From assembly GCA_036785375.1 (NCBI GenBank), contig JAWMAR010000531.1, positions 992,001-1,056,000 of the forward strand: a stretch of DNA of 64,000 nt, written 5' to 3'. A program made the position numbers and the translations under genes. Of this stretch, positions 11,338 to 63,155 are shown in pieces. The notes beneath the pieces were generated by a model. It searched no databases. It saw only the letters and a list, made by a program, of their open reading frames with translations, and had not been told where the DNA came from. Origin of the DNA: Leucoraja ocellata (taxonomy: Eukaryota). Positions within the stretch are counted from its first letter, which is position 1, and the number at the start of each line of letters is the position of its first letter.

Positions 11338-11386
11338 ATGTCTTATTGGATCCGTGTGGTCGGTGCGTTGGTGTTTTGCGCAGTTT
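11338..11386 (+). CDS. IGLV: IgL cluster 1 leader exon (MSYWIRVVGALVFCAV-)
   Basis: 49-nt hydrophobic signal-peptide exon ending in phase-1 donor T|GTGAGT; in-frame upstream ATG at 11332; near-identical to the cluster 3 leader. Confidence 0.92.
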
Positions 11387-11505
11387 GTGAGTATTTTACT
11401 TTCCTGGATATTATACTTATTTCTGTTCACCATTAATTTTGGATTAACTCCCACACTTCAACAAACTTAATATTTTCTTTTTTTCTGATATTTCTCCTTT
11501 CTCAG

Positions 11506-11850
11506 ACTTAAGTGCGGCTATTACAGTAACTCAGCCGCCTTCGATGTCCACCTCTACGGGACAGAACATTCAAATACCCTGCACCATATCGGATACCAGT
11601 ACAGGCGCTAACTATGTCTCGTGGTACCAACAGATTCCTGGCAAAACTCCCAAGTATCTATTCGTCCATACTACCGGCGGCACCATTTATAAAGGCACGG
11701 ATATTCCAGACCGTTTTTCCATCTCGGTGTCAGGCAGCTCTGTAACATTCGCAATATCTAGCGTTCAATCGGTGGATGCTGCTGACTATTACTGTGCCAA
11801 AGCATATAATGGTTTATATTTCGGTAAAGGAACGAGGCTGGGTATTGGCG
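11506..11850 (+). CDS. IGLV: IgL cluster 1 germline-joined VJ exon (lambda-like)
   Basis: Acceptor ttctcag|AC; ITVTQPPSMS...C...WYQQ...DAADYYC-AKAYNGLY-FGKGTRLGIG; donor G|GTAAGT; V and J contiguous and in frame, no RSS. Confidence 0.96.
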
Positions 11851-12844
11851 GTAAGTAAAATATATTCTTCGAACAGCGCGCTGTTTTCTTTTTATTTTAA
11901 TGCAGATATTGCTTGATTTAATGTCCTGAGTTCACAGGATACGTGATTGGGCCAGTTGTATTTCAGTGCAGATGGTGCGATCTTGCTGTACAGATGTTCC
12001 GAGTTCACTTGGACATAACTCAGTGAAATGACTGGGAAAGCGAGCTAATGCTTTGTCTTGAGCTTCGTTCAATAAATTGCGGAAATATTTGCAGTGATTA
12101 TCCAGATATGAAAGGAAACTGCTTGGGTAACGGGGTTCACCAACGTCAATATTCAACACTGTCAAAAATCCGGTTGACGGGTTGAACAAGGATATCAAAA
12201 TGCCAAATGCGAAAGGAGAAAGTTTCGATAATTTCCTTCAGAAATTGTGTTTAATACGTAGAGCAGCTTTTCGTGGACGCAGCCGTGTATTTCAAATTTA
12301 AATGAACATTCGAACTACAATGTAATTCTTGCTTGTGAACTATATCTGCGAATCGGTGACCGTGGCCTTCGAAGACTAGTTTCCATATATTTTTGCCGAA
12401 CTTAAATAGCGTCACCCTCCATCTCAATGGTGCCGACAATTAAATAAGTTTAAATCTGTTATTATAAATGTCGCGACCGCGAATCGTTTATATCTGCTGA
12501 TATATTTAAATAAATGTAAATCCGGCAATGTGTAGTAAAATGAACATTATAAAAGTTATAATAATGTATTCAGTTTTATAAAATACTGCAGCCATGATCT
12601 ATCACAGATGGTTTCCCGGTGTTTATACAGAGGGTAGACAGGATCTATTTTAGTTGCTTTCACGCACTTTATTTATTGTTCACCCAATTAAAATAAACAC
12701 ATTATAATGGTTTGAAAATGGTCGAGAATAAAACGACATTTCTATAAATGAATAAATGAGTGCTTTAATGAGATGTATTTTCGGTAAATAATGATATCTC
12801 AACGACAGCATTTCTCCAATTAAATGTGACTTCTTATTAAACAG

Positions 12845-13167
12845 ATCCTCGGGCACCGATCGTGACGGTCCTGCCGCCTTCAGCCGATGAAGTTACCTCA
12901 AAGGGCACAGCCACCCTGGTGTGTTTGGTGAACGGCTTTAATCCGGGCTCGGTCGCCGTTGAGTGGAACGTCGACGGCAGTGCAAAAAATAGCGACGTTG
13001 AGACCAGCCCGATCCAGCAGGATAAGGACAACACGTTCAGTCTCAGCAGTTACCTGACTCTGACAGCCTCAGACTGGAACTTACACGACCTTTACTCCTG
13101 TGTGGTTAAACACCAGGCTCAGGCAAACCCACTTAAGACAACTATCGAGAGATCCAGCTGTATCTGA
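12845..13167 (+). CDS. IGLC: IgL cluster 1 constant exon (type II/lambda)
   Basis: aaacag|AT; DPRAPIVTVLPPS...ATLVCLVNGFNPG...W...YSCVVKH...RSSCI*; C1-set Ig domain with penultimate Cys; resembles shark type II/lambda C. Confidence 0.96.
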
Positions 13168-13432
13168 TGTTGGAAACGTGAGGCTGACCTGACTAAGTTA
13201 GTTTATCATCATTGGGTTCGTTCATGTGACAAAGTTAGTAATGTATTGGACTTCGGTGTTTTCGCTCAGAAATGCCATTTGTAGTTGAAACTTCGATTTT
13301 TATGACTTGTTCACTTTAAATGTAGTTCTTTCGAAAGAATGTCGTTCTTGAATGAAGCATCAAATAGATTCAATTGCGTTATCCAACAGCATGGATGTTG
13401 TTATTGTACCCATGGTATCTTTGTAGCCGTTG

Positions 13433-13438
13433 AATAAA
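13433..13438 (+). terminator. Cluster 1 polyadenylation signal
   Basis: AATAAA about 265 nt after the stop; same position in cluster 2. Confidence 0.75.
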
Positions 13439-15199
13439 GTTTAAAAAACGCATTTCAAATGCATTGTTGATTCCCTCAGTTTTATTTGTGACCCGAACCA
13501 TGATGGCTTAACACGGGTTGTGTTGTCTCGTAGATCTGAGATACCAACACTGATTTTGATTCTCTATTTCGATCACTAATTACAATCGTACAACAGTCGT
13601 GGGCCACTCGTCCATTTATACCACGCGTTCTACAGCGCTTTGTCAGTTCTTGTGCAACATGAATCAGACAAAGAACCGTACAAACCAAGCAGGGCAAACG
13701 TGGTCTTAAACCCCAAAATATCACAGAAATAAACAGAAATTACTATTAATACTCAGTAAGTCGGGCGGTATGTGGGAAGTGAGAAATAGATTGGACGTTT
13801 CAGGCTGTTTAAAAAAATAAATAAAACAAACGTCCCTGCCAGCCTCGTGCGTTCAGGGTTTGTTAAATATGTCTTTGTTCATAATGTGCCCGGTTACATA
13901 ATTAAATAAAATACGTGTGCATACGTGGAAATCAGGAAATTTGGAAACGCCATTAATTCCCAACATATCAGCAGGTTTCTGTAAACTGATGGGTTGTTCG
14001 CACCTGCACTTTACACCCCTCGCACTAAGCATGGCACCTCCATCCTTCATCACAGAAGGCCGTGACTTTCACACTAATCGGTGACGGGGTTTGTATTTAA
14101 ATATTTACAATCATTAAACTTTATTTCTTCTTTATTTCTTCTGATTGTCAGCTTTAAAGAAACGGAGTGATTATTGGCGTTAGCAGAACTGCCACTGAGT
14201 TTGTATGTGGCGTGCACGTGTCTCACGGTGGTATTACACTAGAACTGGGCAACAACACTCTCAATAAAGCAGGATAATATCTACAGAAAAATGCGATGAA
14301 TGCACGGCAGCTTCATATAGACCACGTGCAGAAAGAGAGAGAGAGAGAGAGGGGAGGGGGGAGAGAGAATAGGACGGGGGCGGGGTTAATAGCGAACAAT
14401 GAGGGAACTATATGCTATAGTTAGAGGACAATCAGTCCCGGACAAACCCCTGACCTCTGTCACAAATCGCTTTTCACTTATTCCAAGCTTTATTACCAAT
14501 TATTTTCACGTTACATGAGCAACCTGGGCTTAAGTCTTAATGAATGGGAAGGAGCTGCAGATGCTGGTTTAAAGCAAAGATAAACACAAACATCTGGAGT
14601 AACTCAGCGGGTCAGAATGCATCTCTGGAGAAAAGGAATCGGTGACGTTTTGGGGCGAGACCCTTCTTCAGACTGTTTGAAGAAGGGTCTCGATCCGAAA
14701 TGTCACGTATTCATTTTCTCCAGAGATGCTGTCTGACCCGTTAATTTACTCCAGCTTTATGTGCCTTATTTTTCTAAATGATCCGTATTGTATGCATTAT
14801 TTGCTGATTCTAATAAATGGTCACATATCTGCAATTGCTCACCTGATCGTTAGTTATTTTGGAAATTCCTCTAAATCTGTAACTTGTAAATACTGAGCAT
14901 TCTTTCGCTCGGAACAAATTGGTCAATTGAAAAGCCTTGACTATGCCCCTCATTCAAATCACCATTATACCTTCCATGTTCAAAGGAACCAGTTCCGATT
15001 ACACGAGCTGCCATTATTATGCCCATTTTCTTCCCAATTTCTTCTGCTGCTTCTAATTTTTATGAAGGAGCCAACAGCAAAGATTTGAGTCTTCCCATCC
15101 TTGCCTTTTCCTTCCGTTCTCCTAGTGTCTTGGTTATCTATTGTGAACTGCACCTTTCCCAGGTGATCGATATCGGGTCTCATTTGTTCTGAATCTTTT

Positions 15200-16043
15200 C
15201 ATAGAAAAATAGAAACATTGATAATAGGCGCAGAGGAGGCCATTCGGCCCTTCGAGCCAGCACCACCATTCGGTGTGATCATGGCTGATCGTCCCCAATC
15301 AATAACCCGAGCCTTTTCTCTCCCCATATCCCTTGATTCCACTAGCCTCTAGAGCTCTATCTAACTCTCTCTTAAATCCATCCAGTGATTTGGCCTCCAG
15401 TGCCCTCTGTGGCAGGGAGTTCCACAAATTCACAACTCTCTTGGAGAAAAAGTTTTTCTCACCTCTGTCTTAAATGGCCTCCCCTTTATTCTAAGACTCT
15501 GGCCCCTGGTTCTGGACTTGCCCCGCGTTGGGAACATTTTTCCTGCATCTAGCTTGTCCAGTCCTTTTATAATTTTATATGTTTCTAAACTCCAGTGAAT
15601 ACAAGCCTAGTCTTTTCAATCTTTCCTCATAGGACACTCCCGCCATCCCAGGGGTCAATCTCGTTAACCTACGCTGCACTGCCTCAATCACAAGGATATC
15701 CTTCCTCAAATTAGATCGAAACAGCACACAATACTCCAGATGTGGTCTTACCAGAGCTCTATACAACTGCAGAAGAACCTCTTTACTCCTATACTGAAAT
15801 CCTCTTGTTATGAAGGCCAACATTCCATTAGCTTTCTTCACTGCCTGCTGTACCTGCACGCCAACTTTCAGTGACTGGTGTACAAGGGCGCCCACGTCTC
15901 GCTGCACATCCCCTTTACCTAACCTAACCCCATAGAGATAATAATATTTTCCCTTGTTGTTGTCGCCAAAGTGGATAACCTCACATGTATCTATATTATA
16001 CTGCACCTGCCACGCATCTGCCCACTCACTCAACCTGCCCAGG
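15200..16043 (-). mobile_element. CR1 3' fragment
   Basis: ORF 15575-16033 is the CR1 C-terminal region. Confidence 0.9.
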
Positions 16044-16900
16044 CAGGGCCGGCCTTAGGGTGTGCGGGGCCCAATTGGGAACAATTTTAGTGGGCCCCAG
16101 GTTCCCAGCCAAGGTGTGTCAGCCCTGTTATTTAGTATATTTTATGAAATTGTACACTAGGTGCTATGGATTATACACGGTGTGAATCTCTCCTGCTCCC
16201 TCCCGTTTGACTGTCAGTAGCTCCACTGGCTTCCAACCTTTACCGTAGCAGTTAATTACCATAAAACTGCATTATGTGCTTGGACACAATGCCCTTGGAG
16301 ACAGCGGTTGATTGGACGGGAGGAGACCGAATTGTTGATTGGACGGGAATTGTAAGGCAAGCTGGTTGGTGATTGGACGCAACCACTTTAGAGACAGCGA
16401 TTGATTGGCCACCAAATAATCGGGCACAAATTGACAAATAGGAAAATAATAAAATCGCTGGTTGGTGCGAACTCAGTAAACTATCTGCGCTGTATCTCCA
16501 AACTAAACAGTCTAACATGCAGGTACATTCATTACAATACAATATAGTGATTATTTCACATAATTTCTCACTGTATCTGATCAATCTCTGTTTAAGATGT
16601 TCGGTCTGCCTTCGGCATTGACCCTGAACTAAAAACCTAAACCAGACTCAATTGTATCATCACATTGTTCTCAGTAAACTCACACATCTCTGCATTCAGG
16701 AGGCTGCTGTGGTTGGAATCACTGGCTCTGAGACCAGAGTGGGTAAAGCGACCTGAGATCAATACATAAGATGATAGCTCTTCTCAATAAAAAAAAACTG
16801 TGACGTTTTTCACTCTAACCATGATGGCTAGAGCTTCATTGCAAGGTGATCTATGACCTCACTAAGTAAATATTGTCGTAACGCTCAGTTGAGGTCAAAT
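16044..16900. mobile_element. Probable hAT-type DNA transposon end (truncated)
   Basis: Begins CAGGGCCGGCCTTAG exactly where the CR1 breaks off; subterminal GATTGG repeats; second TIR not found. Confidence 0.4.
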
Positions 16901-16914
16901 GAAGAAGATATCAA

Positions 16915-18450
16915 CCATGTAACCATAACAATTACAGGCCATCTCGGCCCTTCAAGTCCGTGCCGAACACTTATTCTCACCTAGTCCCATCTACCTGCAC
17001 TCAGACCATACCCTCCATCCCTTTCCCGTCCATGAACCTATCCAATTTATTTTTAAATGATAAAATCGAACCTGCCTCCACCAGTTGCACTGGAAGCTCA
17101 TTCCACACAGCTACCACTCTCTGAGAAAAGAAGTTCCCCCTCATGTTACCCCTAAACTTCTGTCCCTTAATTCTCAAGTCATGTCCTCTTGTTTGAATCT
17201 TCCCTACTCTCAATGAGGAAATCCTTATCCACGTCAACTCTGTCTACCCCTCTCATCATTTTAAAGACCTCTATCAAGTCCCCCCTTAACCTTCTGCGCT
17301 CCAAAGAATAAAGACCTAACTTGTTCAACCTTTCTCTGTAACTTAGTTGCTGAAACCCAGGCAACATTTTAGTAAATCTCCTCTGTGCTCTCTCTCTATT
17401 TTGTTGACATCGTTCCTATAATTAGGCGACCAAAATTGTGCACCATACTCCAAAATTGCCCTCACCAATGCCTTGTACAATTTTAACATTACATCCCATC
17501 TTCTATACTCAATGCTCTGATGTATAAAGGCCAGCACACCAAAAGCTTTCTTTAACACCCCATTTACATGAGATTCCACCTTCAGGGAACTATGCACAGT
17601 TATACCTAGATCCCTCTGTTCAACTGCATTCCTCAATTTGCTACCATTTACCATGTACGTCCTACTTTGATTTGTCCTGTCAAGATGTAGCGCCTCACAG
17701 TTATCAGCATTAAACTCCATCTGCCATCTTTCAGCCCACTCTTCCAAATGGCCTAAATCTCTCTGTAGACTTTGAAAAACGACTTCATTATCCACAACAC
17801 CACCTATCTTAGTATCATGTGCATACTTACTAATCCAATTTATCCAGATCATTGATGTACATGACAAACAACAGTGGACCCAACACAGATCCCTGTGGCA
17901 CCCCACTGGTCACCGGCCACCAACCTGCCAAACAGCCATCCACCATTACTCTCAGGCATCTCTCATTCAGCCACTGTTGAATCCATCTTGCTACTCCACC
18001 ATTAATACCCAACAATTGAACCTTCTTAACCAACCTTCCATGAGGAACCTTGTCAACGGCCTTACTGAAATCCATATAGACACCATCCACTGCTTTACAC
18101 TCATGAATTGCCCTAGTAACCTCTTTAAAAAATTCAAGAAGATTAGTCAAACATGACCTTCCAGGCACAAATCCATGTTGACTGTTCCTAATCAGACCCT
18201 GCTTATCCAGATGCTTATATATATTATCTCTAAGTATCCTTTTCCATTAATTTGCCCACCACTGACTAACAGGTCTACAATTGCTAGATTCACTCTTAGA
18301 ACCCTTTTTAAACAATGGAACAACATGCGCAGTACGCCAATCCTCCGGCACTATCCCCGTTTCTAATGACATTTGAAATATTTCTGTCATGGCCCCGGCT
18401 ATTTCTACACTAACTTCCCTCAATGTCCTAGGGAATATCCTGTCAGGAAA
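16915..18450 (-). mobile_element. CR1 RT fragment
   Basis: ORFs 17001-18513 carry CR1 RT motifs; ATGGTT-type tail. Confidence 0.9.
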
Positions 18451-19743: not shown

Positions 19744-19787
<44 letters not shown>

Positions 19788-20300
19788 CTGTGTCTTTCTC
19801 AGCTCCAGTGGCTGAGAGGTTTTAAGTGGCCTTTCAAGGTTTTTTGGTGGAAGGAGAACGAAGAGAGGCAGAGGGGCTTCATAGTTTAACTTATTGTTGG
19901 ACTGTTGAAACTTTCCTGTTCTTTAAAAATGCCTCCACAAGTGTGAAAAGCCCTGAGATTTCTCTACATTGTCGAGGGAGCGGCTGCCATTGGCGGACTG
20001 CCAAGAGTGCCTGGAGAGCGAGGGTATGAAGTTTTCGGTGTCTTTGTCGTGTTTTTGGCACTGATTCTCTGCCCTAAAGTCATTTTGCACAGTGCGGCTG
20101 CCTGGCTTAATGTGAAGAAGGTGCTTTTGCGTTCGGCAAGACAAGGCGAGGTTTTCTCGGCAGTGGATTGAACTTGGATAATTTTCTACTTTCAGCTGGA
20201 GGACTTTGCTTTTTGAGGATTGCTTTGGACTGTGACTGTCCCTGGGAATTGATTTACTGAGCTGCTGGAGTGCCGGGAGCTGGTTTGTGCCTCTGCCTGG

Positions 20301-22705
20301 ATGGCGATGGCGGGGGCGCAGCAGAAGGCGAAGAGCTACGCAGTAGTGACATCAGCAGCGGAAGCGAGGACATCTGAACATGAGCCTCATGTTGACTTGG
20401 ACTGGGACAGTTTTGGTATCTCGGTTCAAACTGGGCCCCAGATATCCAGGGGATCAATTACGAAGGCTATGAATGCCCTTCTTGGTAGGGGGGCTATTGT
20501 CTCTTCCGAGCTCGAGAGGGGAAAGGTTGAGATGATATTGAAGAACCGGGAGGATGTGGCCACAGTGGTGGAGAGGGGGATTTCAGTGGGGAGGGGGGGG
20601 GGGTCCATATACAGGTGGACCCATGGGTGTCCAGGGTGAGACCGGTTCTCCTGCGGAGTTGCCCCACATGTATTCCGGATGCGACACTCATTCCACGCCT
20701 GTCTCAGATTGGGGAGGTGCGGTATAAGTGCTTTAGGCTCATGCACCCTGGGGGGGACCCGGAGGAAAAAGGGATTCTCAGTTTCAAAAGGAGGGTGTTT
20801 GTGAAGGTGGGGGAGGGGGAAGGTGATGAGGGGAGTTTCGAGGTGGAGTGTAGGGGTCTCCCCAGAACCGTGCGTTGGAGTTGGGGAAAGGCACGGTGTC
20901 ATGCGTGCGGTGGTTATGGACATCTCCGAAGGGAATGTCCTAATCAAGGGGTCGCTGCTAGAACTTCTCGCGCAGTGGCCCAGGAATGCACTGCTGGCCC
21001 ATCAGGGGTTGCTCGTCAGGTCTCGGAGGGGCGGGATGGAATCGCTGACCTGGCAGGGGCTACCGGCTCTGCCTCGGTGATCCGGGGCAGCGGGGATAGC
21101 CCTTCTGGGTCTGCAGTTTCAACCTTGGGGACCCAGGGAGCAAGGGCCCCCGCCCCCTACATCCTGAACCTGAGGGGGTGGCTGAAGGTGAGGCACAGGG
21201 TGAGGGGGGAGAGAAATGGGAGCAGCAGAAGAAGAAGAAGAATAAGCTGAAAAAGACCACCCAAGCGAGTCAAAAGCAAGCGGGTGTGCTACTGCCGAGT
21301 GCGGAGATCACCCAAGGGGCGCCTGTCAGCTCCAGGGGGGTCCAGAGTGAAACTGCCGTGGCCCAGCAAGGAGCTGAGGTGGCTCTGAAGGGGGTAGGGA
21401 AGGCAAAACGCGCGGGTGGTAAGGAGGCGGGGAGTAGTGTGGAGGAGGAAGACCCTCTCCTTAGGGAGGTTACCACCGCCGCATGCTAGTGGGACAAAAA
21501 GGAGGATTGGGCCTGGTGAGGAAGAGCAGGGACGTGAGTCCAAAGTTAGGGGGGTGGATTTTTCCAGATCTTCCACCACCGATGTGGTTGGAGGTCAGGT
21601 AATGACGTCGTCTGGGTTGGAGGTTGAGCATCCACCTCGGGGATCTCTCGAGGATACCACAGGGTCAGGTGAGGGGGTAGACCCCTCTGGAGTTGTGTCC
21701 TCTGGGCTGGGGGATGTTCTTTTGTCTCAGAGGCCCTCCGAGGGGGGGATCTCATCGTGTGTTGATCTTGGCTCCCCTGGGTGTGTGTCTTCTGGGTCGG
21801 AGGAGGTCCCTTCGTTTCAGAGGCCTACTGAGGGTGTTCGCACACAGGAGGGTGGGGTAAGCTCCCCTGGTAGTGCGGACCCTGAGACGGGGGATGTGCA
21901 GAGTCAGACCAAGGGGGGGGGGGGGTCGGGGGGAGTGGTGTTCCAATCAGTGCTCAATTTGAGAGCCAATGGTGGTTCTGAGGTGTATATTGTATTGCCG
22001 GCTGATTTAGCAGGGGAGGGGAAAAAATCTAGTGGAGAGCCTCTGGGTGTTGCCAGTGGAGGGGGTACTTTCGGTGCTGTGGAGGTCGGAGTTACTTCAG
22101 GCAGCGACCTTCTTTCAGATTCTGGGGGTGCCAGTTTACCACAGACCCTGGGGGTGCCTCTTATTTTCTCTTCCCCAGACCCAGATATAGAGGGTGAGGA
22201 CAGAGCGCAGGAGCCCAGCCAGTCAGTGGGCTGCGTGATGCGGAGAGGGGCTTCGGGACCCTTCCCCGGCATTGATCCTGGGGGTGGTGTCATGTCGGAG
22301 GAGAGAGAGAGTGGTGGGGCCGATTTGTGTGGAGGGGTTGGCGAAATTCCAGAGAGCTCTGGTTTTTCGAATTCTGAAAATGGCCTTGGGGATGCTGAGC
22401 GTGTTGTGTCAGGTGCGAGTAACTTGGACGATAGCCCAGGACCCAGGGTCGAGTCTCATGAAATTGTTATCTGTGAAGTGAGGGAATTTTTAAAAACAAG
22501 CCGCACTAATAGAACAAGGTTAGAGGCGGCTAAGAGACGGTGGGCTGATCTGTCGTCCTTAGTTAAAACTCTCGAGACTATCCTTGCGACCAAGGATAGT
22601 GATCTTCTTGGCTCTGAGCAGTGTCAGTTTAGGGACTTTTTGGAGTTCCTAAAAAGAGAGGGGGCTACAGAGCCCAGGAGGAGAAGTATGAGGATTTCAA
22701 TTTAA
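20301..22705 (+). pseudogene. Tx1 ORF1 (gag-like), frameshifted
   Basis: N-terminal KSYAVV motif; zinc knuckle CHACGGYGHLRREC (CX2CX4HX4C); split over four ORFs. Confidence 0.8.
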
Positions 22706-25700
22706 TGTACCAGTGCATTCACGTTAGCTACCCTAAACTTAAACGGGAGTAGAGCGAGTTTTCGCAGGTTCCAGCTTTTATCGGTCCTTAGAGAGGGGAA
22801 ATTTGCAATGTTTTCTGCAGGAGACGCATACTGTTGTCAAGGATGAACCCACTTGGAGGTTGGAGTGGGAAGGAGAGGTCTATATGAGTCATCTTAGCTC
22901 AATTTCGAGTGGGGTGGCCATTCTGTTGGCTCAGAATTTCCTGCCCAATATTATAAAAGTGCAAGAAGTTGTGCCAGGATGTTTGCTCCATCTGGCCGTG
23001 AGCCTGGATGGCATGCCGTTGCATTTCATTAACGTGTATGCCCCCAGCTCTGGCACGATGCAGGCCGGCCTAATTCAGGAAGTGAATGCTCTGTTGAGCA
23101 CTATTGATCGGGGAGAGTGTGTCTTCCTTGGGGGGGACTTTAACTGCACACTTGAGGTGCGAGATCGTTCTGGTACTCAGTGTGCTCCTGCTGTAGCAAA
23201 GAAGCTGAGAGGGTTGATTGATTCTTTTGAGTTGGTTGATGCGTGGCGGGACCTCAACCCAGACTCCACTGCTTTTTCGCGGAGGTCTGAGGGCGGTGGT
23301 TCCCGCATTGATCGAATATATATCTCCCGAGCGTTTGTTTCCCGTGTCTCAGCGGCCTCAATGCAGATGGTGCCATGCTCGGACCACTGTCTGGTGCGTG
23401 TGGATTTTAATCCAGCACGCGTTCGGGCTGGGTTTGCGTACTGGCACTTTAATAACCGGCTGCTGGAGGATCGGTGTTTCCGGGAGTCATTCACTCGGTT
23501 TTGGGTGTGGTGGAGAGAGAGGCAGAGATGCTTCTCTTCCCTAAGGCAGTGGTGGGATGTGGGAAAAGTTCACATCCGTATTTTTTGTAAGGAATACACG
23601 TGGGGGTCGACCGGGCGGCGGGACTCAGCGGTTGAGAAGCTTGAGAGGGAGCTGATGGACGCAGAGTCTCGCCTGGGTCAGGCTGGAGGTGACTCTTGCG
23701 AATGGGGTGTGTTTCATGAGAAGAAGGAAGCCTTGAGGTACCTGCAACTTGAGCGGTCCCGAGGCGCTTATGTGAGAGCGCGGGTCCAGATGCTGCATGA
23801 TCTGGATCGAGCATCGCCCTTCTTTTTCTCTCTGGAGAAAGGGCGGGGAGCCCGCAAGCAGCTCGTGGAGCTGCTCGCAGATGATGGCTCCTCTGTCACA
23901 GATCCGGAGAGGATTAGTGCCTTGGTCAGGTCCTTTTATGGTTCCCTGTTCTCCGCAGGTGGAGTCAGCGGGGAAGCTCAGCAGGACCTGTGGGAGAGTC
24001 TACCGGTTATAGATAGGGAGGTGGCCGATCTTCTTGATGGCCCTTTATCTTTGGAGGAGTTGACTTGTGCACTGCATCAGCTCAGGAGGGGTAAGTCCCC
24101 CGGGCTGGATGGGCTGACGGTAGAGTTTGTAAGAGCCTTCTGGGTTATCCTGGGGGGTGATTACATGTTGGTTCTGGGGGAGAGCCTGGCGACAGGGGAG
24201 ATGCCCCTTTCGTGGCGTCGAGCAGTGGTTGTCCTGCTGCCCAAGAAGGGGGAACTCCGCCTGCTGAAAAACTGGCGCCCGGTCTCTCTCCTATGCACAG
24301 AGTATAAAGTATTTGCACGGGCGATGGCAAATCTCCTGGGCTCTGTGCTGTCTCAGCTGATTCACCATGACCAGTCTTACACAGTCCCTGTTCGGTCAAT
24401 TCAGGATAACATCCACCTGGTTAGGGGCCTGATTCATCTAGCACAGGGAACTGGTCAGTCAGCGGCGTTTCTGTCTCTTGATCAGGAGATCATCAGCTTT
24501 TGATAGGGTAGAGCATGAATACCTGTTCGGAACGTTGCAAGCGTTTGGATTTGGACCGCATTTTGTGGCCCGGGTCCACCTCTTGTATGCTGCAGCGGAG
24601 TGCCTTGTGAAGGTTAATGGTGCGTTGTTGGTTCCCTTTCGTTTTGGGAGGGGGGTCCATTAGGGGTGCCCCATGTCAGGTCAGTTGTACTCGGTCTGTG
24701 TGGAGCCATTCCTGTGTCTTCTTCGGAGGAGGTTGACAGGCCTGGCCCTACCGGGCCCAGGGGTGGAGTTGGTTCTTTCGGCCTATGCCGATGATGTACT
24801 CCTTATGTTCACCGATCCTGGTGACCTGCGGAGGATGCGTGATTGCCAGAAGATTTTCTCGGATGCATCTTCTGCCAGGATTAATTGGAGCAAGTGCTCT
24901 GGACTTTTAGTGGGTCAGTGGCAGGTGGACCCCCTGCCAGAGGAGATGGCAATGTTTGCGTGGAGCACCACGCACCTCCTCTATCTGGGGGTGTACCTGA
25001 GTCCCACTGAGGATGCTTGGCCGGCAAATTGGCAGGAGTTGGAGACGAAAGTGGTTGCCAGGCTGGGGCGCTGGTCAGGCCTGCTTGGAGTTCTTTCTTT
25101 TCAGGGGAGGGTGTTGGTCATAAACCAGCTGGTGGCCTCCATGTTATGGTACCGGCTGGCTACTCTTGTCCCACCTCCCACTTTTGTAAATGCTTTACAG
25201 ATGAAGCTGGTGGACTTCTTTTGGGGAAATAGGAAGCACTGAGTTTCCGCAGCTGTCCTGAGCCTCCCGTTAGAGGAGGGCGGCCAGTCCTTGGTATGCG
25301 TGCGTACCCAGGTGGCGGCTCTCCGCCTCAGGACTCTGAGGAGGTATATGTATATAGAGAACCCCCCCAGATGGCACGTTTTGGCCACGTATTTTTTCCG
25401 ACGGGGTCGTTGTCTAAGGGGGGTCTCGCGGCTCCCGGTGGCGGGCATCAGTCGACCCGCCCTAAGGGGCTTGCCTGTTTTCTACCGGGATGTGTTAAGA
25501 GTGAGGAATCTGGTTGTTTTCAGCCAGCGTGTTGCTCCACGAGGGGAGGGGGATGGTTGCGGCTGCGGGAGTGGCCAGTCCTCAACTAACCATGGCTGGT
25601 GTCGAGGAGAGGCGTGCGCCCAGAGTGGTTTTAAATGAGCCCTTACCTGCTCCGTCAGATCTGCTCATTGGGCCTCGGTTCCGGGATATATCCCAGGCAC

Positions 25701-26414
25701 CGTTCAACACAACCTGAGCCGCCTTTCAGAGATGACCAGCGTGCCGTTTCGTGACGCGAAGAGACGCTCACTGTATAGAATGTTCCTGCACATTCTGCAC
25801 CTCCTTGCCTTCGCCTCCCGTCCCGACACACCATGGCGGACGGTGTTACCACCTGAAGGAGGGGAAGGTCCCCAGTGGGGGTCCCTGTACAAGGGAGTTG
25901 TCCCCCTATACGTGGGGGACCTGGGGTGGAGAGTGCTGCACAGAGCGGTGGCGTGTAACAAACTTTGAGTCAGTTCACGGACTCGTCCGCTGCCTGTATT
26001 TTTTGTGGCGAGGAAGAGACCGTGTTCCACATTTATATGGAGTGTGAGAGGCTACTGCCCCTGTATCAATATCTGAAGGGGTTGTTCCTAAAGTTCTGGT
26101 TACATTTTAGTCCTACGATTCTTGTGTTTGGACACAAGGCAGGGTGTGGGGAGAGCCAAGTGGGAGGGTGGGACCTACCTGTCGGTCTACTCCTGGGCCT
26201 GGCCAAGATGGCCATACCGCGGATCCAGGCAGCAGGCGATGGATGGTCAGGCAAGAGTCGGCTGCCTGCCCCTCTTCGGGCCTACGTCCGTGCACGTGTG
26301 TCCCTGAAGAGGGAACATGCGGTGCTCACGGGGACTTTGGAGGTATTCCGTGGGCGCTGGGCACTGCGTGGGGTTGAGAGTATTGTGAATAATGATTGTA
26401 ATGTTGTACTATAA
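22705..26414 (+). pseudogene. Tx1 ORF2 (AP endonuclease + reverse transcriptase + C-terminal CCHC), frameshifts and stops
   Basis: TLNLNG, LQETH, NVYAP, GGDFN, RIDRIY, SDH, PGLDG, WRPVSL, AFDRV, YADD, CIFCG..ETVFHIYMEC. Confidence 0.92.
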
Positions 26415-26644
26415 TGACACGATATAATGTAAGTCCGTTTTGTGTATGACTTGATCTGTTGTAGTATTTGATGTGTTGAATAAAGTCTTTGAAAAAAAAA
26501 AAAAAAAGATAGAGAGAGAGAGAGAGAGAGGGACCGAAAGACAGATAGACACAACGTGGGTCCGTAGGTAAATGACTAACCTGCACACCAAGAAGAAGCT
26601 CGCGGTCTGAGCCCTCAACCATGATGATGAGTTTTAAGAATTCT

Positions 26645-30630: not shown

Positions 30631-30953
30631 TCAGATACAGCTGGATCTCACGATATTTGTCTTAAGTGGGTTTGCCTGAGCCTGGTGTGTAACCACACAG
30701 GAGTAAAGGTCGTGTAAGTTCCAGTCTGAGGCTGTCAGAGTCAGGTAACTGCTGAGACTGAACGTGTTGTCCTTATCCTGCTGGATCGGGCTGGTCTCAA
30801 CGCCGCTATTTTTTGCACTGCCGTCGACGCTCCATTCAACGGCCACCGAGCCCGGATTAAAGCCGTTCACCAAACACACCAGGGTGGCGATGCCCTTTGA
30901 GGTAACTTCTTCGGCTGAAGGCGGCAGGACCGTCACGATCGGTGCCCGAGGAT
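30631..30953 (-). CDS. IGLC: IgL cluster 2 constant exon
   Basis: 323-nt exon, same length as the others, ending RSSCI*. Confidence 0.96.
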
Positions 30954-32935: not shown

Positions 32936-33277
32936 CACCAATACCCAGCCTCGTTCCTTTACCGAAATGAACACCACTATCCGATTTTGCACAGTAATAG
33001 TCCGCAGCATCATCCGCTTGAACGTTAGATATTGCGAATGTCGCAGTGTTGCCTGACATTGAGACGGAGAAACGGTCTGGAATGTTCGTGCCTTTATCAA
33101 TGCTGCCGGAATAATAGTAGAATAAATACTTTGGAGTTTTGCCAGGGGTCTGTTGGTACCAGGAGACATAGTTACCGCCTGAACTGGAGCCCGATATGGT
33201 GCAGGTTATTTGTATGTTCTGCCCCGTAGAGGTGGACATCGAAGGCTGTTGACTTACTGTAACTGCCGCGTTTACAT
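32936..33277 (-). CDS. IGLV: IgL cluster 2 germline-joined VJ exon
   Basis: VTVSQQPSMS...C...WYQQ...DAADYYC-AKSDSGVH-FGKGTRLGIG; intact splice sites; no RSS. Confidence 0.96.
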
Positions 33278-33397: not shown

Positions 33398-33446
33398 AAA
33401 CTGCGCATAACAGCAGAGCGCCAACCACACTGATCCAGCAAGACAT
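33398..33446 (-). CDS. IGLV: IgL cluster 2 leader exon (MSCWISVVGALLLCAV-)
   Basis: 49-nt signal-peptide exon with T|GTGAGT donor. Confidence 0.92.
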
Positions 33447-46816: not shown

Positions 46817-47139
46817 TCAGGTACAGCTGGATCTCATGATATTTGTCTTAAGTGGGTTTGCCTGAGCCTGGTGTGTAACCACACAGGAGTAAAGGTCGTG
46901 TAAGTTCCAGTCTGAGGCTGTCAGAGTCAGGTAACTGCTGAGACTGAACGTGTTGTCCTTATCCTGCTGGATCGGGCTGGTCTCAACGCCGCTATTTTTT
47001 GCACTGCCGTCGACGCTCCACTCAACGGCGACCGAGCCCGGATTAAAGCCGTTCACCAAACACACCAGAGTGGCGATGCCCTTTGAGGTAACTTCATCGG
47101 CTGAAGGCGGCAGGACCGTCACGATCGGTGCCCGAGGAT
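46817..47139 (-). CDS. IGLC: IgL cluster 3 constant exon
   Basis: 323-nt exon ending RSSCT*. Confidence 0.96.
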
Positions 47140-48315: not shown

Positions 48316-48657
48316 CGCCAATACCCAGCCTCGTTCCTTTACCGAAATGTAAACCACTATCCCATTTGGCACAGTAATAGTCAGCAGCATCCACCGATTG
48401 AACGCTAGATATTGCGAATGTTACAGAGCTGCCTGACGCCGAGATGGAAAAACGGTCTGGAATGTCCGTGCCTTTATAAATGGTGCCGGAATAATACCAG
48501 AAAAGATACTTGGGAGTTTTGCCAGGAATCTGTTGGTACCACGAGACATTGTCAGTGCCTGTACTGGTACCCGATATGGTGCAGGGTATTTGTATTTTCT
48601 GTCCCGTATAGGTGGACATCGAAGGCGGCTGAGTTACTGTAACAGCCGCGCTTAAGT
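48316..48657 (-). CDS. IGLV: IgL cluster 3 germline-joined VJ exon
   Basis: VTVTQPPSMS...C...WYQQ...DAADYYC-AKWDSGLH-FGKGTRLGIG; intact splice sites; no RSS. Confidence 0.96.
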
Positions 48658-48775: not shown

Positions 48776-48824
48776 AAACTGCACAAAACACCAACGCACC
48801 GACCACACGGATCCAATAAGACAT
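48776..48824 (-). CDS. IGLV: IgL cluster 3 leader exon (MSYWIRVVGALVFCAV-)
   Basis: 49-nt exon, same peptide as the cluster 1 leader; GT donor intact. Confidence 0.92.
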
Positions 48825-56071: not shown

Positions 56072-56844
56072 AAACTTTATTGTCATTCAGATATACACCT
56101 AGACACAGTGCACCTTGAACGAAATTTCGTTGCATTTTACTCTCCAAAATCAGTTAAAAGTTAAAAGTTCCAGGTGCGTCCATAAAAATGCCTCATGCGC
56201 ATGGTTCTGTAAAATAAATATATATTAAAAATAGAATCTATCCCACGTTATTGAGAGACGAAAGAGTGTAGAATACTGGGTTTTGTTGCTGTGACCTTTG
56301 TTTCCTCTTCAGTCATAGGCCAGGTGCCAAAGAACCGGCGAACAGTCAATTGCGTTTCCCTGTTTCTGAAGGACATCGGAGAGAAACCAGAAAGGTATAT
56401 ACCAGTGAGCCTTTCATTAGTGGTTGGGAAAATATGAAGGAAGCTTCTTCCGTATCGGATCTACTCGCCATCTGGAAAACGTTGACTTATTGGCGATGGC
56501 ACAAAAGACTGCAGAGGCTTAATGGAGGGACTGATTGGTAGGTAACATTCAAGTTGGGGGAGGGGGTGGAAGGGTGAAGATGTGGGATGATATGGAAAAA
56601 ATCTGTAGGTTCTGTCATCTGAAAGGAAATGAAGGCGAAGAATGGAACAGAATGAGGAAGGTTGGTAGTTGGGAGCTGAAGAGGGACGGGAAGGGGAGTA
56701 ATGGGGGAAGGAGATGGAGAGTGTGGGGGAAGAGGTAGAAACAGTGCGGTGGAGAACTGTGAGATGAGGTGGGAATAAAAGGTGTCAAAAAGGGCCGTGA
56801 TAGATAGGATGAGAGGGAATGGGATAGCAGAGCTTAGGGTAATG

Positions 56845-57118
56845 GTAAAATGGAAAATTCAATGTTCAAGCAGTTGGGTTGTGGACTGCCTGGTTGGAAT
56901 ACGCGCTCCTGTTACAACAGTTTGACTTTAGCTTCTCTCCGGACGTGGAGGACAGAAAATATCCTTGTGGAAATACGATGGAGAATTTAAATGACTGATA
57001 ACCAGACGATCCGTGTGGCCACAGTGGACTGAGAGCAGATGCTCGACAAAGCTGTCACCTAATCTGCTTTGGTTTCACTGATGTATATGTGGCCATATCG
57101 GAAACACCAGATGCAGAT
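56845..57118 (-). mobile_element. Decayed Penelope-like element GIY-YIG endonuclease
   Basis: Minus-strand remnants HIYISETK..LGDSFVEHL..SHLNSPS..LHVRREAKVKLL*QERVFQPGSPQPNCLNIEFS. Confidence 0.7.
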
Positions 57119-57139
57119 TTACACAAAAGGACATTGGAG

Positions 57140-57890
57140 TAAGATAGATAGATATAGATATGCCATTTATTGTCACTATACATGTACAATGAAATTAAAA
57201 GCTGTTTGTACTCAGTGCATACATATAATTTAGTACAAAAAACAAGAAACAGAAAACAAAAACAGAAGGGAGAAGGGGGGGGGGGGTAGGTGCACAATTC
57301 TGCGGCGCTATATACATATATACAGATGGAAGTCCGGGTGTTGGGCTGTGAAGTCAGTGCATGTGTGAATTTGAATTAAGAGTAGTTATAATTTTCGGAA
57401 AACAACTATTCCTGAGTCTATTTGTCCTGGATTTGATGCACCTATAGCGCCTTCCAGAGGGCAGCAGGTCGAACAGTCCAAACGCGGGATGGGAGCTGTC
57501 TTTGATGATATTCTTTGCCCTGCTAAGGCAGCGGGAGGTGTAGATATCCATCAGGGAGGGGAGAGGGCAACCGATGATCTTCTGTGCTGTCCTAGTTACC
57601 CTCTGAAGCCTCTCCCTGTCTGCCATGGTGCAGCTGCCATACCATGCTGTAATGCAGTATGTCAGCAGGCTCTCGATGGACGAGCGGTAGAAGGTCAGCA
57701 GCAGGTTAGAGTCCAGGTTGTGCTTCATGAGGACCCTCAGGAAGTGCAGCCGCTGCTGAGCCTTCTTGATGACCGCTGTCGTGTTGTCTGTCCAGGAGAT
57801 ATCAGCAGCGATATGGACGCCGAGAAAACGGAAGGTGGTGACCCTCTCCACACAAACGCCGTTGATATGTAGGGGGACTAAGTCGGTGCT
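57140..57890 (-). mobile_element. Rex1/Babar LINE 3' end
   Basis: KKAQQRLHFLR..FYRSSIESLLTYCITAWYG..LLPSGRRYR; GACAATAAA and (TCTA)n tail. Confidence 0.9.
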
Positions 57891-58499
57891 GTGCCTCCGA
57901 GTTCTTTTGTTTTCCTGGTGTTCAGAGCCAGATTGTTTTCTGAGCACCAGGTTGTCAACTTCAGGACTTCCTCTCTGTAGGCTGCCTCGTCTCCCTTTGA
58001 AATAAGACCGGCTACAGTAGTAGTAACTCAGCGGGGCAAGCAGCATCTCTGCAGTACATTGACAGGTGATGTTTCGGGTCGAGCAACTACTTCAGGTCTG
58101 AAAAAATGACCAGGGCTGAAACGTTATCTGTCCTCGTTCTCAAGGAGTGCAGCATGACCTGATGGGTTACTCCAGCATTCTGTGTCTTTCCCAGGTTTGC
58201 TGTTTCTAGCTTCTCTATTATTTTCTTATCATGCTTCTTCTAATAGGCATTACATTTTCCATTGACTGAGTTACTTCAATGATTTGTGTTGCCGCCGATT
58301 TGTTTCAGTGCTGTGCGATTCTATGTTGTTTGTTGTATTTGTGGTGAAGGGTGTGAATGGTAGATGAATCACTAATCCATTAAGCCATTTTTTCCTTCAT
58401 GATGCCGATCTTTCTGAATCATATTGCAGCTGCACATCCAGAGAGACGAAGGGTATTCAAGTACAGTTGAATTGTGCGTTTTTAAAATGTACATATGCC

Positions 58500-59820
58500 A
58501 TAAGATCATAAGGGATAGGAGCAGAATTAAGCCATTCGGTCCATCAAGTCTACTCCACTATTCAATCATGCCTGGTCTATCTCTCCATCATAATCCTATT
58601 CTCCTGCCTTCTCAACATAACTTCAAACACCTGTACTAATCAAGAATGTATCTATCTCTGCCTTAAAAAATATCCAGATGGTTTCCACAGCCTTCTGTGG
58701 CAAGGAATTCCACAGATTCACCGCCCCCTAACTAAATAACTTTCACCTCACCTCCTTCCTAAAAGAACGTCCTTTAATTCTGAGGTTAAGACCTCTAGCC
58801 CTAGACTCCCACTGGTGGAAACATCCTAGACTCCCACTGGTGGAAACATCCTCTCCACATGTACTCTACCCAAGCCTTTCACTATTCTGTACATTTCAAT
58901 GAGGTCCCCACTCATTCTTCTAAACTCCAGCATGTAAAGCTCAGTGCCTCCAAACGCTCAACATAGGTTAACCTACTCATTCCTGGGATCATTCTTGCAA
59001 GCCTCCCCCAGACCATCCAGAGCCAACACATCCTTCCTCAGATATCGTGCCCAAAATTGCTCATAAAATTCCAAATGCGGCCTTATAGAGCCTCAACACG
59101 ACACCTCTGTTTTATATAGGAGCCCTCTTGAAATAAATGCTAGCATTGAGTTTGTTTCATTACAACTGACTCGACTTGCAGCTGAACTGCACCAGCACTA
59201 TTCTTTGTCCCTTTGCACCTCCGATTTCTGGATCCTCGCCCCATTTAGGAAATAGTCTATGCCTTTAATCCTATTACGAAAATGCATGACTCCACACTTT
59301 GCTACACTAGATTCCATCTGCCACTTCTCTGCCCACTGTCCCAACCTGCCAAGTCCTTCTGCAGAGTCCCTGCTATCTCTACACAACCTGCTCCTTCGCC
59401 TATTTTTGTATCATCCGCAAACTTGGCCACAAAGCCTTCAATTCCTTCGTCCAAATTATTACTATACAACGTGAAGTGTAGCGGCCCCAGCACCGATCCT
59501 TGCGGAACTCCACTAGTCACCTGCAGGCAACCAGAAAAAAACCCCTTTATAGCCACTAGTTGTCTTCTACCATCCAGCCAACCTGCTATCCGTGGACTCT
59601 CATTTTCCTCAGCAGCCTAACGTGTGGCGCGTTATCAAAGGCTTCTGAAAATCGAAGTAAACACATCTACTGACTCTCCTTTGTCTATCCTGCTCTTTAC
59701 TTCTTCAAAGAATTCCAGCAAATTTGTCAAGCAAGACCTTCCCTTCACAAAGCCATGCTGACTTCGGCCTATTTTATCGTGAACTAAGTACCCCGTAACC
59801 TCATCCTTTATAACGGACTC
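58500..59820 (-). mobile_element. CR1 RT fragment
   Basis: [37 protein letters not shown]. Confidence 0.88.
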
Positions 59821-62503
59821 TTGTGACTTTATGGCATGTGTATATTTAAAAGAAATGTACAATCCAACTGTAATTGAACACCCTTTGTGTCTCTGGGTAA
59901 GTGCAGCTGCAATATGATTATGAAAGATCGGCATCATCAACATCTGTTTAACAAGTGTATTTCAGTTGATTATAATTAAATTAGACATATCTGGCGGCAA
60001 TGAATTTTACTCAAACTATTTCAATGCAATTATCGCCTTCGTTCTGTTCCGCTTCTCCCTGCCATGGGAGCTTACAAATCTGCATTTCGTTGGTGATTCT
60101 TGCCTCATTACCTTTGTTTTAGTAGAAATATACTATTGGGAGTCAGGTCGTTGCAGTAAAAAAATTTTTGCAAGGTCGTGGAAATGATCACCTCTGAAGA
60201 AGGGGCTGGACCCGAAACGTCCCCCATTCCTTCTCTTCGGACATGCGGCCTATCCCAGTGTTACTCCAGCATTCTGTGCCTATCTTCGGTTTAAACCAAC
60301 ATCTGCAGTTCCTTCCTATACACACGACGATGGTACACACGACATTAATTTCTGCAAAAGGTGCTTACTATTTGCTTTTTTTTTCACAATCACCGCGCAT
60401 GCGAAGTTGTAAGTGCACTCTGTGTGTGCTTCATCACATCTTATTTTAAGAAAACGCTTTGTTTATGTTGGGGGCAAAGGCCACAACTTCTTATTTATGA
60501 ATAGAAATGTGTTTCTCATTTAGTGCACCAGGCCTCTCACATTCTTTGTCCTTGCTTATCTGTTTCAACATAATTTCTCATCATTTGTGCCAGGTAGATT
60601 TCTCCTTCTGTGTCCATTTTCAGACAATATATTTGTGTCTTCCAGTTCCCAATTCTCTTCCTCCTCTTTTTGTGTCTGAATTCTCCATTATGTTGTGACA
60701 CAAAAGAATGCCGGTGTTGGAATCTTGAGTAACACTAACAGGAAAGGATTTAAAAGAAGTAGAGAGATGGAACTACAGATGATGGTTTACAAATTAAAAG
60801 ATACACGCTGCTGGTGCACATCAGCAGGCCAGGAAGCATCCCCGAAGAATAGGGATAGGTCATGATTTGGGTATTAGTGGCCTAGTGTAACCTATTAATC
60901 ACCCAATGCTTATTAACCATGACATGCTTTATTTAATTACATGTCGTGAAGATTAATTATTCGGTGCATTTTCATGATGCACTTAGCATTTCAGGCGCCA
61001 CGGGTCGAACTTAATATACCCGCCACGTTCAAATGATGTCATTTTGTGGATTTACCAATTGAACATATTTTCCATTGTGCGAGAGAAACCCTCGGATAAA
61101 TTCCTTTCATCTGGGATGAAATATATGCCGATGTGCCTATTTAATACCCTCAATACGGTAAATTCAATCTTTGAAGGTTTGTCCGATTTGATGCTCATAA
61201 TTTATACGGAAGTCTGCATAACCGGTCTCAGGAATCCTTGCTAAAGTAGCCCGGCGTTTGTCTGTTGAATTGTTCGCGTATTTCATTTCTGCCAATTGGT
61301 CATAGCTAACATACGTTTAAAAAAAAAACCCCAAAGAATTTCTGAATATCATGATTGGAACTCATATATTAACACGATGAAAAGATAGAAAATATTTGTT
61401 TAGGAAGGAACTGCAGATGCTGGAAAATCTAAGGTACACAAAAATGCTTGAGAAACTCAGCGGGTGCAGCAGCATCTATGGAGCGAAGGAAATAGGCAAC
61501 GTTTCGGGTCGACGTTTCCTTCGTTTCATAAATGCTGCTGCACCCGCTGAGTTTCTCCAGCATTTTTGTGTACCTTAGAAAATATTTGTCCTTGAATCTT
61601 GGAATGTTCTCGCACAGCGGGCAGAAGCCTCGGTATGCAGTATACGTCGGCATTTATTAAGGTGTATTTTTGAGCCCCCCCCTGCCCGCGCACATCATCC
61701 GAAGCGATCGGCTTGTGCTATATTTTAAATATATACAACGTATATGTAATATTATTGTTTATTTAATTATATTTTAATGCTGCTCCAGTATAGGAATCAA
61801 CACTGTATGGTATTTCAGGTTCTCGTATTTAAAGCAGAGGCACCAGACTTTCTTCCGTTGGGTAAAATAAAGTTACCAGCACCGCGCCAGTTAAACGTAT
61901 CTTCGTTTTTACTAACATCAAATGCAATGGCATGATGCATGCGTTTTGTGCAAGGACCGATATTACAGACGCATATTGGGTCGTGGTTTGCTGCACGACA
62001 GTACGGTCAAAGTAGACAATGTACATCGTTGCATCCGTGCACCAAAGTCACAGCTCAAAACTATGGTGTAATGTTGAAACTGATGTTTTTGTGAAGTGAG
62101 AGTAAAAGCAATGGTCCAAGTGCAGAAAAATAGGATTAATGTAGATGAGTACTTGAGAGTCGGCATGGACTTGATAGCCTCCGCGGGGCCTGTTCGCCTT
62201 CGACAAGGACAAAATGACAAAAACCTCAGATCCGCAATCTGCAATGATGTCTCGTCCAATATGCGAATCGTCAGAGTAAGAAAATCTATCTTATGACCGC
62301 ACATTTGCTGAATAAACTCGTGTGGACCCTATCTTCCACAACAGCACCATGGGAATAGATGCATATATGAATGGAAAATAAAACAGTAATGCTCTATATT
62401 CCTTATTATGTTTTATGTTTTAAAAATGTATCGAAGTAACCAAGAAATAGAGAATTCGAAGCCTATTCCGGTTCCAATAGGTCACAGGGAAAACCATTGA
62501 CAT

Positions 62504-62571
62504 TTCTGATTGGTTACAAGCAGCAATATCATTTGCATTAATCAGGTGACACCTCACCGCACTATTCAAAA
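62504..62571 (+). promoter_or_regulatory. Cluster 4 promoter with canonical Ig octamer and E-box
   Basis: ATTGG at 62509, ATTTGCAT at 62531-62538, CAGGTG at 62543, TATTCAAAA TATA-like, about 105 nt before the ATG. Confidence 0.8.
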
Positions 62572-62642
62572 GCGAGACGAAAAATAAGTTAGAAGCCACT
62601 GGGAAACTGTTGCCTTGCCTGGACTCCAGTCAGTAAAATACA

Positions 62643-62691
62643 ATGACTTACTGCATCCGACTACTCTGTGCGCTGGCTCTTTGCGCGACTT
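62643..62691 (+). CDS. IGLV: IgL cluster 4 leader exon (MTYCIRLLCALALCAT-)
   Basis: 49-nt signal-peptide exon with T|GTGAGT donor. Confidence 0.9.
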
Positions 62692-62807
62692 GTGAGTTCC
62701 TTTGTTCATCAACATTAGATTTATCCTCGAGTACACTTCTCAGCTGGAGGTTTCTCTCGTGTTTTAATTCCAAATGATTGTTATCACTGTGCTCTTTATT
62801 TTCCCAG

Positions 62808-63155
62808 ATTTACGCGCAGAAATTACAGTAAGCCAGCCGCTTTCGATGTCCATCACTCCGGGGCAGAACTTAGAACTAACCTGCACCATGTCTGGCGCTA
62901 CTTTAGGGAACGACAATGTATACTGGTATCAGCAGATTCCTGGACGTACTCCGCGGCTTTTAGTCTATTATTGGTCCAGCAAGAGCACTCCTGGTCGAGG
63001 TCCGGGAGTTTCAGAGAGGTTTTCCGGGTCAGTGTCAGGCAACACGGGGACTTTCACAATATCTAACGTTCAATCAGACGACGCTGCCGATTATTACTGC
63101 GCTATGTGGAAAAACTTTTTAAGATTTGCAAAAGGAACACGAGTGGATGTTGGCA
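62808..63155 (+). CDS. IGLV: IgL cluster 4 germline-joined VJ exon, divergent V family; C exon not in window
   Basis: EITVSQPLSMS...C...WYQQ...DAADYYC-AMWKNFLR-FAKGTRVDVG; acceptor ttcccag| and donor A|GTAAGT. Confidence 0.94.

What the first reader, a model, noticed from the sequence alone, without database searches (positions are those of the whole stretch)
11338..63155. Dense array of germline-joined (pre-rearranged) Ig light-chain genes: a hard-wired antibody repertoire
Seen: four leader-VJ(-C) units within 52 kb (+,-,-,+). Each has V fused in frame to J, no heptamer/nonamer RSS, retained leader-V introns and intact splice sites; clusters 1-3 also have a J-C intron and their own C exon. 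Known: cartilaginous-fish type II/lambda light chains are germline-joined and organised in clusters, so the system itself is not new. Inference: these genes need no RAG step, so exclusion between neighbours only 14-18 kb apart would have to be transcriptional, and diversity must come from gene number and hypermutation.
Basis: partly seen in the sequence, partly recalled or inferred. Interest (0 to 1): 0.7.

Follow-up and report, generated by a model that had tools for sequence, protein, structure and literature searches.

The report
Skate pre-joined antibody lambda light-chain array
This is part of a skate's array of more than twenty antibody lambda light-chain genes whose V and J parts are already fused in the inherited DNA, a long-known feature of sharks and skates; the copies have likely swapped pieces with one another over time.

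Summary
Confirmed. Four leader-VJ units (+,-,-,+) have V fused in frame to J, canonical splice sites and no RSS. Unit 4's C exon lies 1.4 kb beyond the window. They belong to a skate lambda (type II) locus: 59 C exons on what look like two haplotype scaffolds plus two small contigs, and 58 of 58 V genes read are joined. Related RNA runs show spliced, polyadenylated L-VJ-C transcripts, and DNA runs from four studies bridge the V-J junction. Germline-joined lambda clusters are textbook in cartilaginous fish, orthologues are already in RefSeq, and this scan noted a similar shark array elsewhere (e1-9395581). Modest additions: (1) the window's long-CDR2 V lineage has an 8-residue CDR3 in 40 of 40 copies, matched in stingray, sawfish, sawshark and ratfish proteins; (2) paralogues are recombinant mosaics; (3) the octamer is intact only in unit 4; (4) only 2 light-chain clusters found in this genome are split (sigma, weak J signal), and no kappa V was found. 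That exclusion is purely transcriptional is untested. Low-to-moderate interest.

The parts
11338..11386 (+). Unit 1 leader exon
   Evidence: splice 11386->11506 in RNA reads of a related skate
11506..11850 (+). Unit 1 fused VJ exon (CDR3 AKAYNGLY, 8 aa)
   Evidence: DNA contigs bridge the junction
12845..13167 (+). Unit 1 C-lambda exon; AATAAA at 13433-13438; poly(A) tail joins at 13459 in a related transcript
19787..26506 (+). About 6.7-kb LINE (endonuclease + reverse transcriptase, ORF2 in two pieces, 3' A-tail) inside a GA repeat; absent from the matching place on C384; bystander
30631..30953 (-). Unit 2 C-lambda exon
32936..33277 (-). Unit 2 fused VJ exon (CDR3 AKSDSGVH)
33398..33446 (-). 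Unit 2 leader exon
46817..47139 (-). Unit 3 C-lambda exon
48316..48657 (-). Unit 3 fused VJ exon (CDR3 AKWDSGLH)
48776..48824 (-). Unit 3 leader exon
62531..62538 (+). Perfect Ig octamer ATTTGCAT in the unit 4 promoter (units 1-3 carry 2-3 mismatches at the matching site)
62643..62691 (+). Unit 4 leader exon
62808..63155 (+). Unit 4 fused VJ exon (CDR3 AMWKNFLR); a distinct V lineage shared with sawfish and stingray; its C exon lies just outside the window

Best explanation
These are germline-joined immunoglobulin lambda (type II) light-chain minigenes of a skate, each a self-contained leader-VJ-C unit that needs no V-J rearrangement, and close relatives are transcribed, spliced and polyadenylated as such; their diversity likely comes from gene number, exchange of segments between neighbouring copies over evolutionary time and somatic hypermutation, and one light chain per cell is likely reached by chance promoter activation plus selection for pairing with the heavy chain. 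Shown here: anatomy, joining, isotype grouping, transcription of the gene family in related runs, mosaic ancestry of the copies, amino-acid change concentrated in CDRs. Inferred or taken from the literature: RAG origin of the join in an ancestral germ cell, hypermutation, and the exclusion mechanism.
For: Anatomy. Genome: 59 lambda C exons; 58 of 58 V genes read carry J directly after CDR3. No RSS at any V-J, with split sigma genes as control. The closest full-length proteins are Leucoraja, Rhinoraja and Amblyraja models (V 74-92%). A gene of the same array on C531 is nearly identical to skate cDNA protein AAA59379. RNA: L->V and J->C joints at the predicted GT..AG sites (J->C in 4 of 4 runs, 38 raw reads in X22), one contig spanning L-VJ-C, and a poly(A) tail. 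DNA contigs from 4 runs of 4 studies cross the junction without insertion. Site incompatibility is 0.40-0.51 against at most 0.23-0.30 in 100 clonal simulations for each of 3 gene groups. CDR vs framework+C replacement excess: Fisher p=0.003 (B1), 0.037 (B2), 0.14 (A). Literature passages say all lambda genes are joined in every cartilaginous fish studied (PMC5192425, PMC4279169, PMC12227049).
Against: No shark kappa reference could be obtained, and the C tree with kappa rows was poorly resolved; the isotype rests on identity and the V tree. The RNA reads come from other skates or paralogues, not demonstrably from these four genes; three of the four runs are only guessed to be RNA and their tissue is unknown. 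Units 1-3 lack a consensus octamer, so their expression level is open. Positive selection (dN>dS) was not significant in any CDR by a conservative count (best p=0.12). The distance-based recombination test was not significant for the core B1 group (p=0.10; C384-only p=0.43). Assembly chimeras in a repetitive locus with scaffold gaps could add false mosaicism. Hypermutation and exclusion were not tested.
Confidence: 0.93

Rival explanations
1. The joins are somatic: the assembly captured rearranged B-cell DNA.
For: The source tissue of the assembly and of the DNA runs is unknown.
Against: 58 of 58 V genes are joined, on two haplotype-like scaffolds, with the same CDR3s recurring in other species' genome models. 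No RSS remains anywhere near the V-J sites. Four independent DNA runs agree.
Confidence: 0.01
2. Processed (retrotransposed) copies of rearranged transcripts.
For: V and J are fused, and the region is rich in LINE pieces.
Against: Leader-V and J-C introns and the promoters are retained in all four units.
Confidence: 0.005
3. The window's long-CDR2 genes are a separate light-chain isotype (lambda-2, kappa or sigma-like) rather than true lambda.
For: Their V has a longer CDR2 than the classical type II genes of the same array (W-to-C 57-59 vs 53-57 residues), and the two V groups separate with strong support.
Against: Their C groups with type II C and is 61-73% identical to it. They share one array with classical type II genes. 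Lambda-2 is defined by short CDR1/CDR2, while lambda CDR2 ranges 3-7 (PMC5985310 passages). Kappa V forms a separate clade (91/100).
Confidence: 0.04
4. Exclusion among these genes is purely transcriptional, one cluster active per B cell.
For: No RAG step is available to limit them. Promoters differ (octamer perfect, 1 mismatch, or 2-3 mismatches by subgroup). Limiting trans-factors were proposed for shark IgH (PMC2435157 passages).
Against: Not tested here. A recalled nurse shark result (not readable) has functional lambda mRNA in kappa-bearing cells.
Confidence: 0.35

Closest known systems
Chondrichthyan IgL lambda (type II / NS3) germline-joined clusters (little skate, sandbar shark, nurse shark, ratfish)
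   Same: One V-J-C minigene per cluster, VJ fused in frame, no RSS, split leader, C 61-73% identical to shark, chimaera and skate lambda-type C.
   Different: The window's genes belong to a long-CDR2 V lineage with a fixed 8-aa CDR3, unlike the short-CDR2 lineage (CDR3 5-13 aa) that holds the skate cDNA AAA59379. About 23-31 genes per haplotype here, against six loci quoted for nurse shark (PMC5192425 passage).
RefSeq 'immunoglobulin lambda-1 light chain-like' models of Leucoraja erinacea (XP_055511137-147) and Amblyraja radiata (XP_0328994xx)
   Same: Direct orthologues: unit 2's CDR2 matches XP_055511142, unit 4's CDR3 matches XP_055511143, unit 1's CDR2 matches XP_055511137.
   Different: Automatic names only; CDR combinations differ between orthologous copies.
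Skate type I (sigma-2) germline-joined light chains (Anderson 1995, PMC2192082, abstract seen)
   Same: All joined, clustered, replacement changes concentrated in CDRs.
   Different: A different isotype (C 42-45% identical). Only 3 sigma-2 clusters were found in this assembly, against at least 89 reported for Raja erinacea.

Membership tests
Chondrichthyan IgL lambda (type II) | V-set domain plus a single C1-set domain with a terminal cysteine | tested here: met
Chondrichthyan IgL lambda (type II) | Cluster organisation: one V, one J, one C per unit | tested here: met
   4 of 4 window units; 59 C and 58 V in the genome, the missing V falling at a scaffold gap
Chondrichthyan IgL lambda (type II) | VJ joined in the germline, no RSS | tested here: met
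   58 of 58 V joined; scans 26, 67; DNA runs (tissue of the runs unknown)
Chondrichthyan IgL lambda (type II) | C region groups with known type II sequences, not sigma or sigma-2 | tested here: met
   C tree (93/84 for the group apart from sigma, sigma-2 and IgH; the group also holds three divergent batoid chains P0073-75); identities. That AAA59379/AAA59369 are 'type II' is recalled; the database names them only 'immunoglobulin light chain'.
Chondrichthyan IgL kappa (type III) | V and C group with kappa; short 3-residue CDR2 | tested here: not met
   Bony-vertebrate kappa V forms its own clade 91/100; C identity 32-50%; CDR2 is long. No shark kappa in the test.
IgL lambda-2 | Short CDR1 and CDR2 (2-3 residues) per PMC5985310 | tested here: not met
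   CDR2 is long in all four units
Chondrichthyan IgL lambda (type II) | Expressed as a spliced L-VJ-C transcript | tested here: met
   for the gene family in related skate runs; not gene-specific
Chondrichthyan IgL lambda (type II) | Diversified by somatic hypermutation in B cells | not tested
   Needs RNA and DNA from one individual; the differences cannot be told from paralogue or species differences

The most novel reading that the evidence does not exclude
This skate makes essentially all its light chains without rearrangement: about 59 lambda and 3 sigma-2 clusters are joined, kappa is absent, and the only split clusters (two sigma) have a J signal with a degenerate nonamer and may not rearrange. 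Combinatorial diversity has moved into the germline, where exchange between tandem copies reshuffles CDR1, CDR2 and CDR3 on a V-J join whose 8-residue length has been kept since before chimaeras and elasmobranchs split.
Probability: 0.2. Interest if true: 0.6.

Novelty: already known. Interest (0 to 1): 0.25.

Why it matters
The system is known. The value is as a mapped, sequence-resolved locus in which 23 or more functional-looking, pre-joined light-chain genes lie 10-18 kb apart and differ enough (window V 52-85% identical) to be told apart in single-cell RNA-seq. That makes the old question of how a shark or skate B cell limits light-chain expression without rearrangement directly testable. 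The mosaic copies and the fixed 8-residue junction say something about how a non-rearranging repertoire evolves.

Tried and rejected
RSS-like hits (heptamer, 22 nt, nonamer with 2 mismatches) in 9 short-CDR2 genes: their places coincide with the leader exon and its splice donor, so they are made of coding and splice letters, inherited from one ancestor, and shuffles give 0-2 such hits; rejected as chance. Signal joints that would mark a RAG inversion of units 2-3: none in any fetched stretch. Germline AID footprint: polymorphism at WRC/GYW motifs was higher in V pooled over 4 groups (36 of 171 vs 50 of 357, p=0.044) but in none of the 7 other segments, including leader intron and J-C intron, and an apparent promoter excess vanished; rejected, as CDR selection explains it. 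The first recombination test (p<=0.0005) was partly driven by divergent copies; with three copies dropped B1 gave p=0.10, so the simulation was added. Pairwise pN>pS in B1 CDR2 (0.28 vs 0.04) was not significant when distinct changes were counted (20 N, 2 S, p=0.12); the B2 row wrongly held a sigma-2 gene and was redone. A DNA search for flank copy number was swamped by a repeat; direct alignment was used instead. No run holding the stretch is on record as RNA; one added run (X22) is. A representative search with sigma V did not show whether skate sigma rearranges. PDB searches gave only generic antibody hits. No structure was predicted, as it would not change the verdict.
Full report
Observation. 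Six-frame reading and the raw sequence show four V exons that run straight through CDR3 into an F-G/A-K-G-T J motif and a GTAAGT donor, oriented +,-,-,+. Three have a C exon in the window; the fourth has one 1.4 kb past its end. Leaders, introns and splice sites are canonical and the spliced frames are open at 237-239 aa. Pfam calls V-set on 4 of 4 and C1-set on 3 of 3. No recombination signal lies in the window under a relaxed scan, whereas the scan finds the V signals of the two split sigma genes elsewhere in the genome.

Context. The window is C531:992001-1056000 of a 3.44-Gb assembly. Its closest proteins are from Leucoraja, Rhinoraja and Amblyraja, so it is a skate. A C-exon search gives 59 lambda-type C exons: 23 on C531, 28 on C384, 5 on C4271, 3 on C4817 (150 of 462 candidates scored, so a lower bound). 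I fetched these regions except C384 225-235, 245-250, 260-268 and 278-280 kb, where the searches listed no V or C, and read 58 V genes; all 58 are joined. The 59th falls at a scaffold gap. At least 7 clusters are broken by a frameshift or stop, some perhaps by assembly error. C531 and C384 are colinear at about 96-99% in all sampled blocks over 120 kb of flank, so they are most likely two haplotypes, though a recent large duplication is not excluded. That gives about 23-31 genes per haplotype. Both carry the inverted pair (units 2-3), but they differ in copy number and in where the short-CDR2 block sits; 200-N gaps beside the array make that order unsafe.

Germline and expressed. DNA contigs of 4 runs from 4 studies cross the V-J junction with no insertion (tissue unknown). 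In 4 RNA or RNA-like runs from related skates, cover is almost confined to exons, with joints at the leader-V intron (3 of 4 runs) and the 994-nt J-C intron (4 of 4), a contig spanning L-VJ-C and a poly(A) tail at 13459. These reads differ by 1-15% and cannot be assigned to a single gene.

Isotype. Unit 1's C is 61-73% identical to shark, chimaera and other skate lambda-type C, 49% to this genome's sigma, 45% to its sigma-2 and 37-49% to bony-vertebrate kappa. In the C tree the window's genes join the lambda-type group. With kappa rows added the C tree is unresolved, as PMC5985310 (passages) warns, but kappa V forms its own clade. No shark kappa was on hand. A gene of the same array is nearly identical to skate cDNA protein AAA59379; that this is 'type II' is recalled.

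Two V lineages. The array holds a short-CDR2 lineage (CDR3 6-11 aa here, 5-13 in databases) and a long-CDR2 lineage, to which all four window genes belong. The latter has an 8-residue CDR3 in 40 of 40 copies. Of 30 database proteins of this type, 23 have 8 and 7 have 9 (3 further proteins could not be parsed). They include stingray, sawfish, manta, the sawshark Pristiophorus and the ratfish Hydrolagus (CDR3 8 aa, J FGKGTRVGIG). The ratfish V is not placed with support in the trees, so a single ancient join is an inference from shared features. Unit 4 heads its own lineage with sawfish and stingray orthologues (100/99).

How it likely works. Shown: each unit is complete as inherited, so B-cell expression needs only transcription and splicing. 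Framework and C are under purifying selection (N/S ratio 0.35-0.49 in B1 and B2, 0.47 and 0.94 in A), and replacement changes concentrate in CDRs (p=0.003, 0.037, 0.14), without significant dN>dS. Copies are mosaics: the same CDR3 block sits with different CDR1 and CDR2, and site incompatibility exceeds 100 of 100 clonal simulations in each of three groups. The distance test is significant for B2a, B2b and A (p<=0.001, also within one contig for B2a and A) but not for core B1. Assembly chimeras remain a caveat. Inferred: the join was made once by RAG in an ancestral germ cell (the mechanism argued for shark kappa genes in PMC2193156, passages) and then multiplied by tandem duplication; hypermutation adds somatic diversity (established for shark Ig; PMC2192082 abstract says 'potentially' for skate type I). 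Exclusion is untested. I put stochastic promoter activation plus heavy-chain pairing ahead of purely transcriptional exclusion, on a recalled nurse shark result whose text I could not read. Promoters differ: a perfect octamer in unit 4 and the short-CDR2 genes, one mismatch in some B2 genes, two or more in units 1-3 and their kin.

Whole light-chain inventory (lower bounds). Sigma-2: 3 clusters, all joined. Sigma: 2 split clusters with a near-consensus V signal and a J signal whose nonamer has 4 mismatches at a 22-nt spacer. No kappa V scored above lambda V with a gar kappa query. No counterpart of the divergent batoid chains P0073-75 was found.

Comparison and novelty. [quoted passage not shown] The scan itself noted a similar shark array. 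Eight searches of the open library listed no paper devoted to the skate lambda locus map, its two V lineages or its mosaicism. Key papers (Rast 1994 not sought; Hohman 1993, Criscitiello and Flajnik 2007, Iacoangeli 2017 not held) and all supplements were unseen, so these details may be in print. I saw the abstract and references of PMC2192082, passages of PMC2193156, PMC5985310, PMC5192425, PMC4279169, PMC12227049 and PMC2435157, and one reference line of PMC6901605. Verdict: real, correctly identified, already known; interest 0.25.

Noticed in passing
window 19787-26506: About 6.7-kb LINE with 3' A-tail inserted in a GA repeat between units 1 and 2, absent from the matching place on C384: likely a heterozygous insertion.
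   Followed up: partly
G000:C6:6738147-6765416 (L029-L032): Two inverted sigma clusters are the only split light-chain genes found; both have a perfect J heptamer but a nonamer with 4 mismatches at a 22-nt spacer, and a better nonamer 48 nt away. Whether they rearrange is open.
   Followed up: partly
G000:C94:6733863-6844337 and C230:192317-196064: Only 3 sigma-2 (type I) clusters found, all joined, against at least 89 reported for Raja erinacea (PMC2192082 abstract). Assembly collapse, species difference or an old overcount.
   Followed up: partly
window 11338 upstream, 33446 upstream, 48824 upstream vs 62531-62538: Octamer lost or degenerate in units 1-3 and most long-CDR2 genes, which keep CCAAT-like boxes; perfect in unit 4 and the short-CDR2 genes. 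Transcripts of the unit-1 type still occur in related runs.
   Followed up: partly
P0073-P0075 (Pristis, Mobula, Hypanus): Batoid light chains with a C only 44-48% identical to skate lambda and distinct from sigma and sigma-2; no counterpart found in this genome. A divergent lambda lineage or a further isotype.
   Followed up: partly
G000:C531 vs C384: The short-CDR2 block lies before the long-CDR2 block on C531 but about 430 kb beyond it and inverted on C384; scaffold gaps flank the array, so misassembly or a haplotype rearrangement.
   Followed up: no
L059 (G000:C384:886372): One V exon has a 27-nt in-frame duplication at its start, and its C ends early.
   Followed up: no
P0225 (Hemitrygon sigma model): A stingray sigma gene model is a complete VJ-C protein; whether it is joined in the germline or a modelling artefact was not checked.
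   Followed up: no
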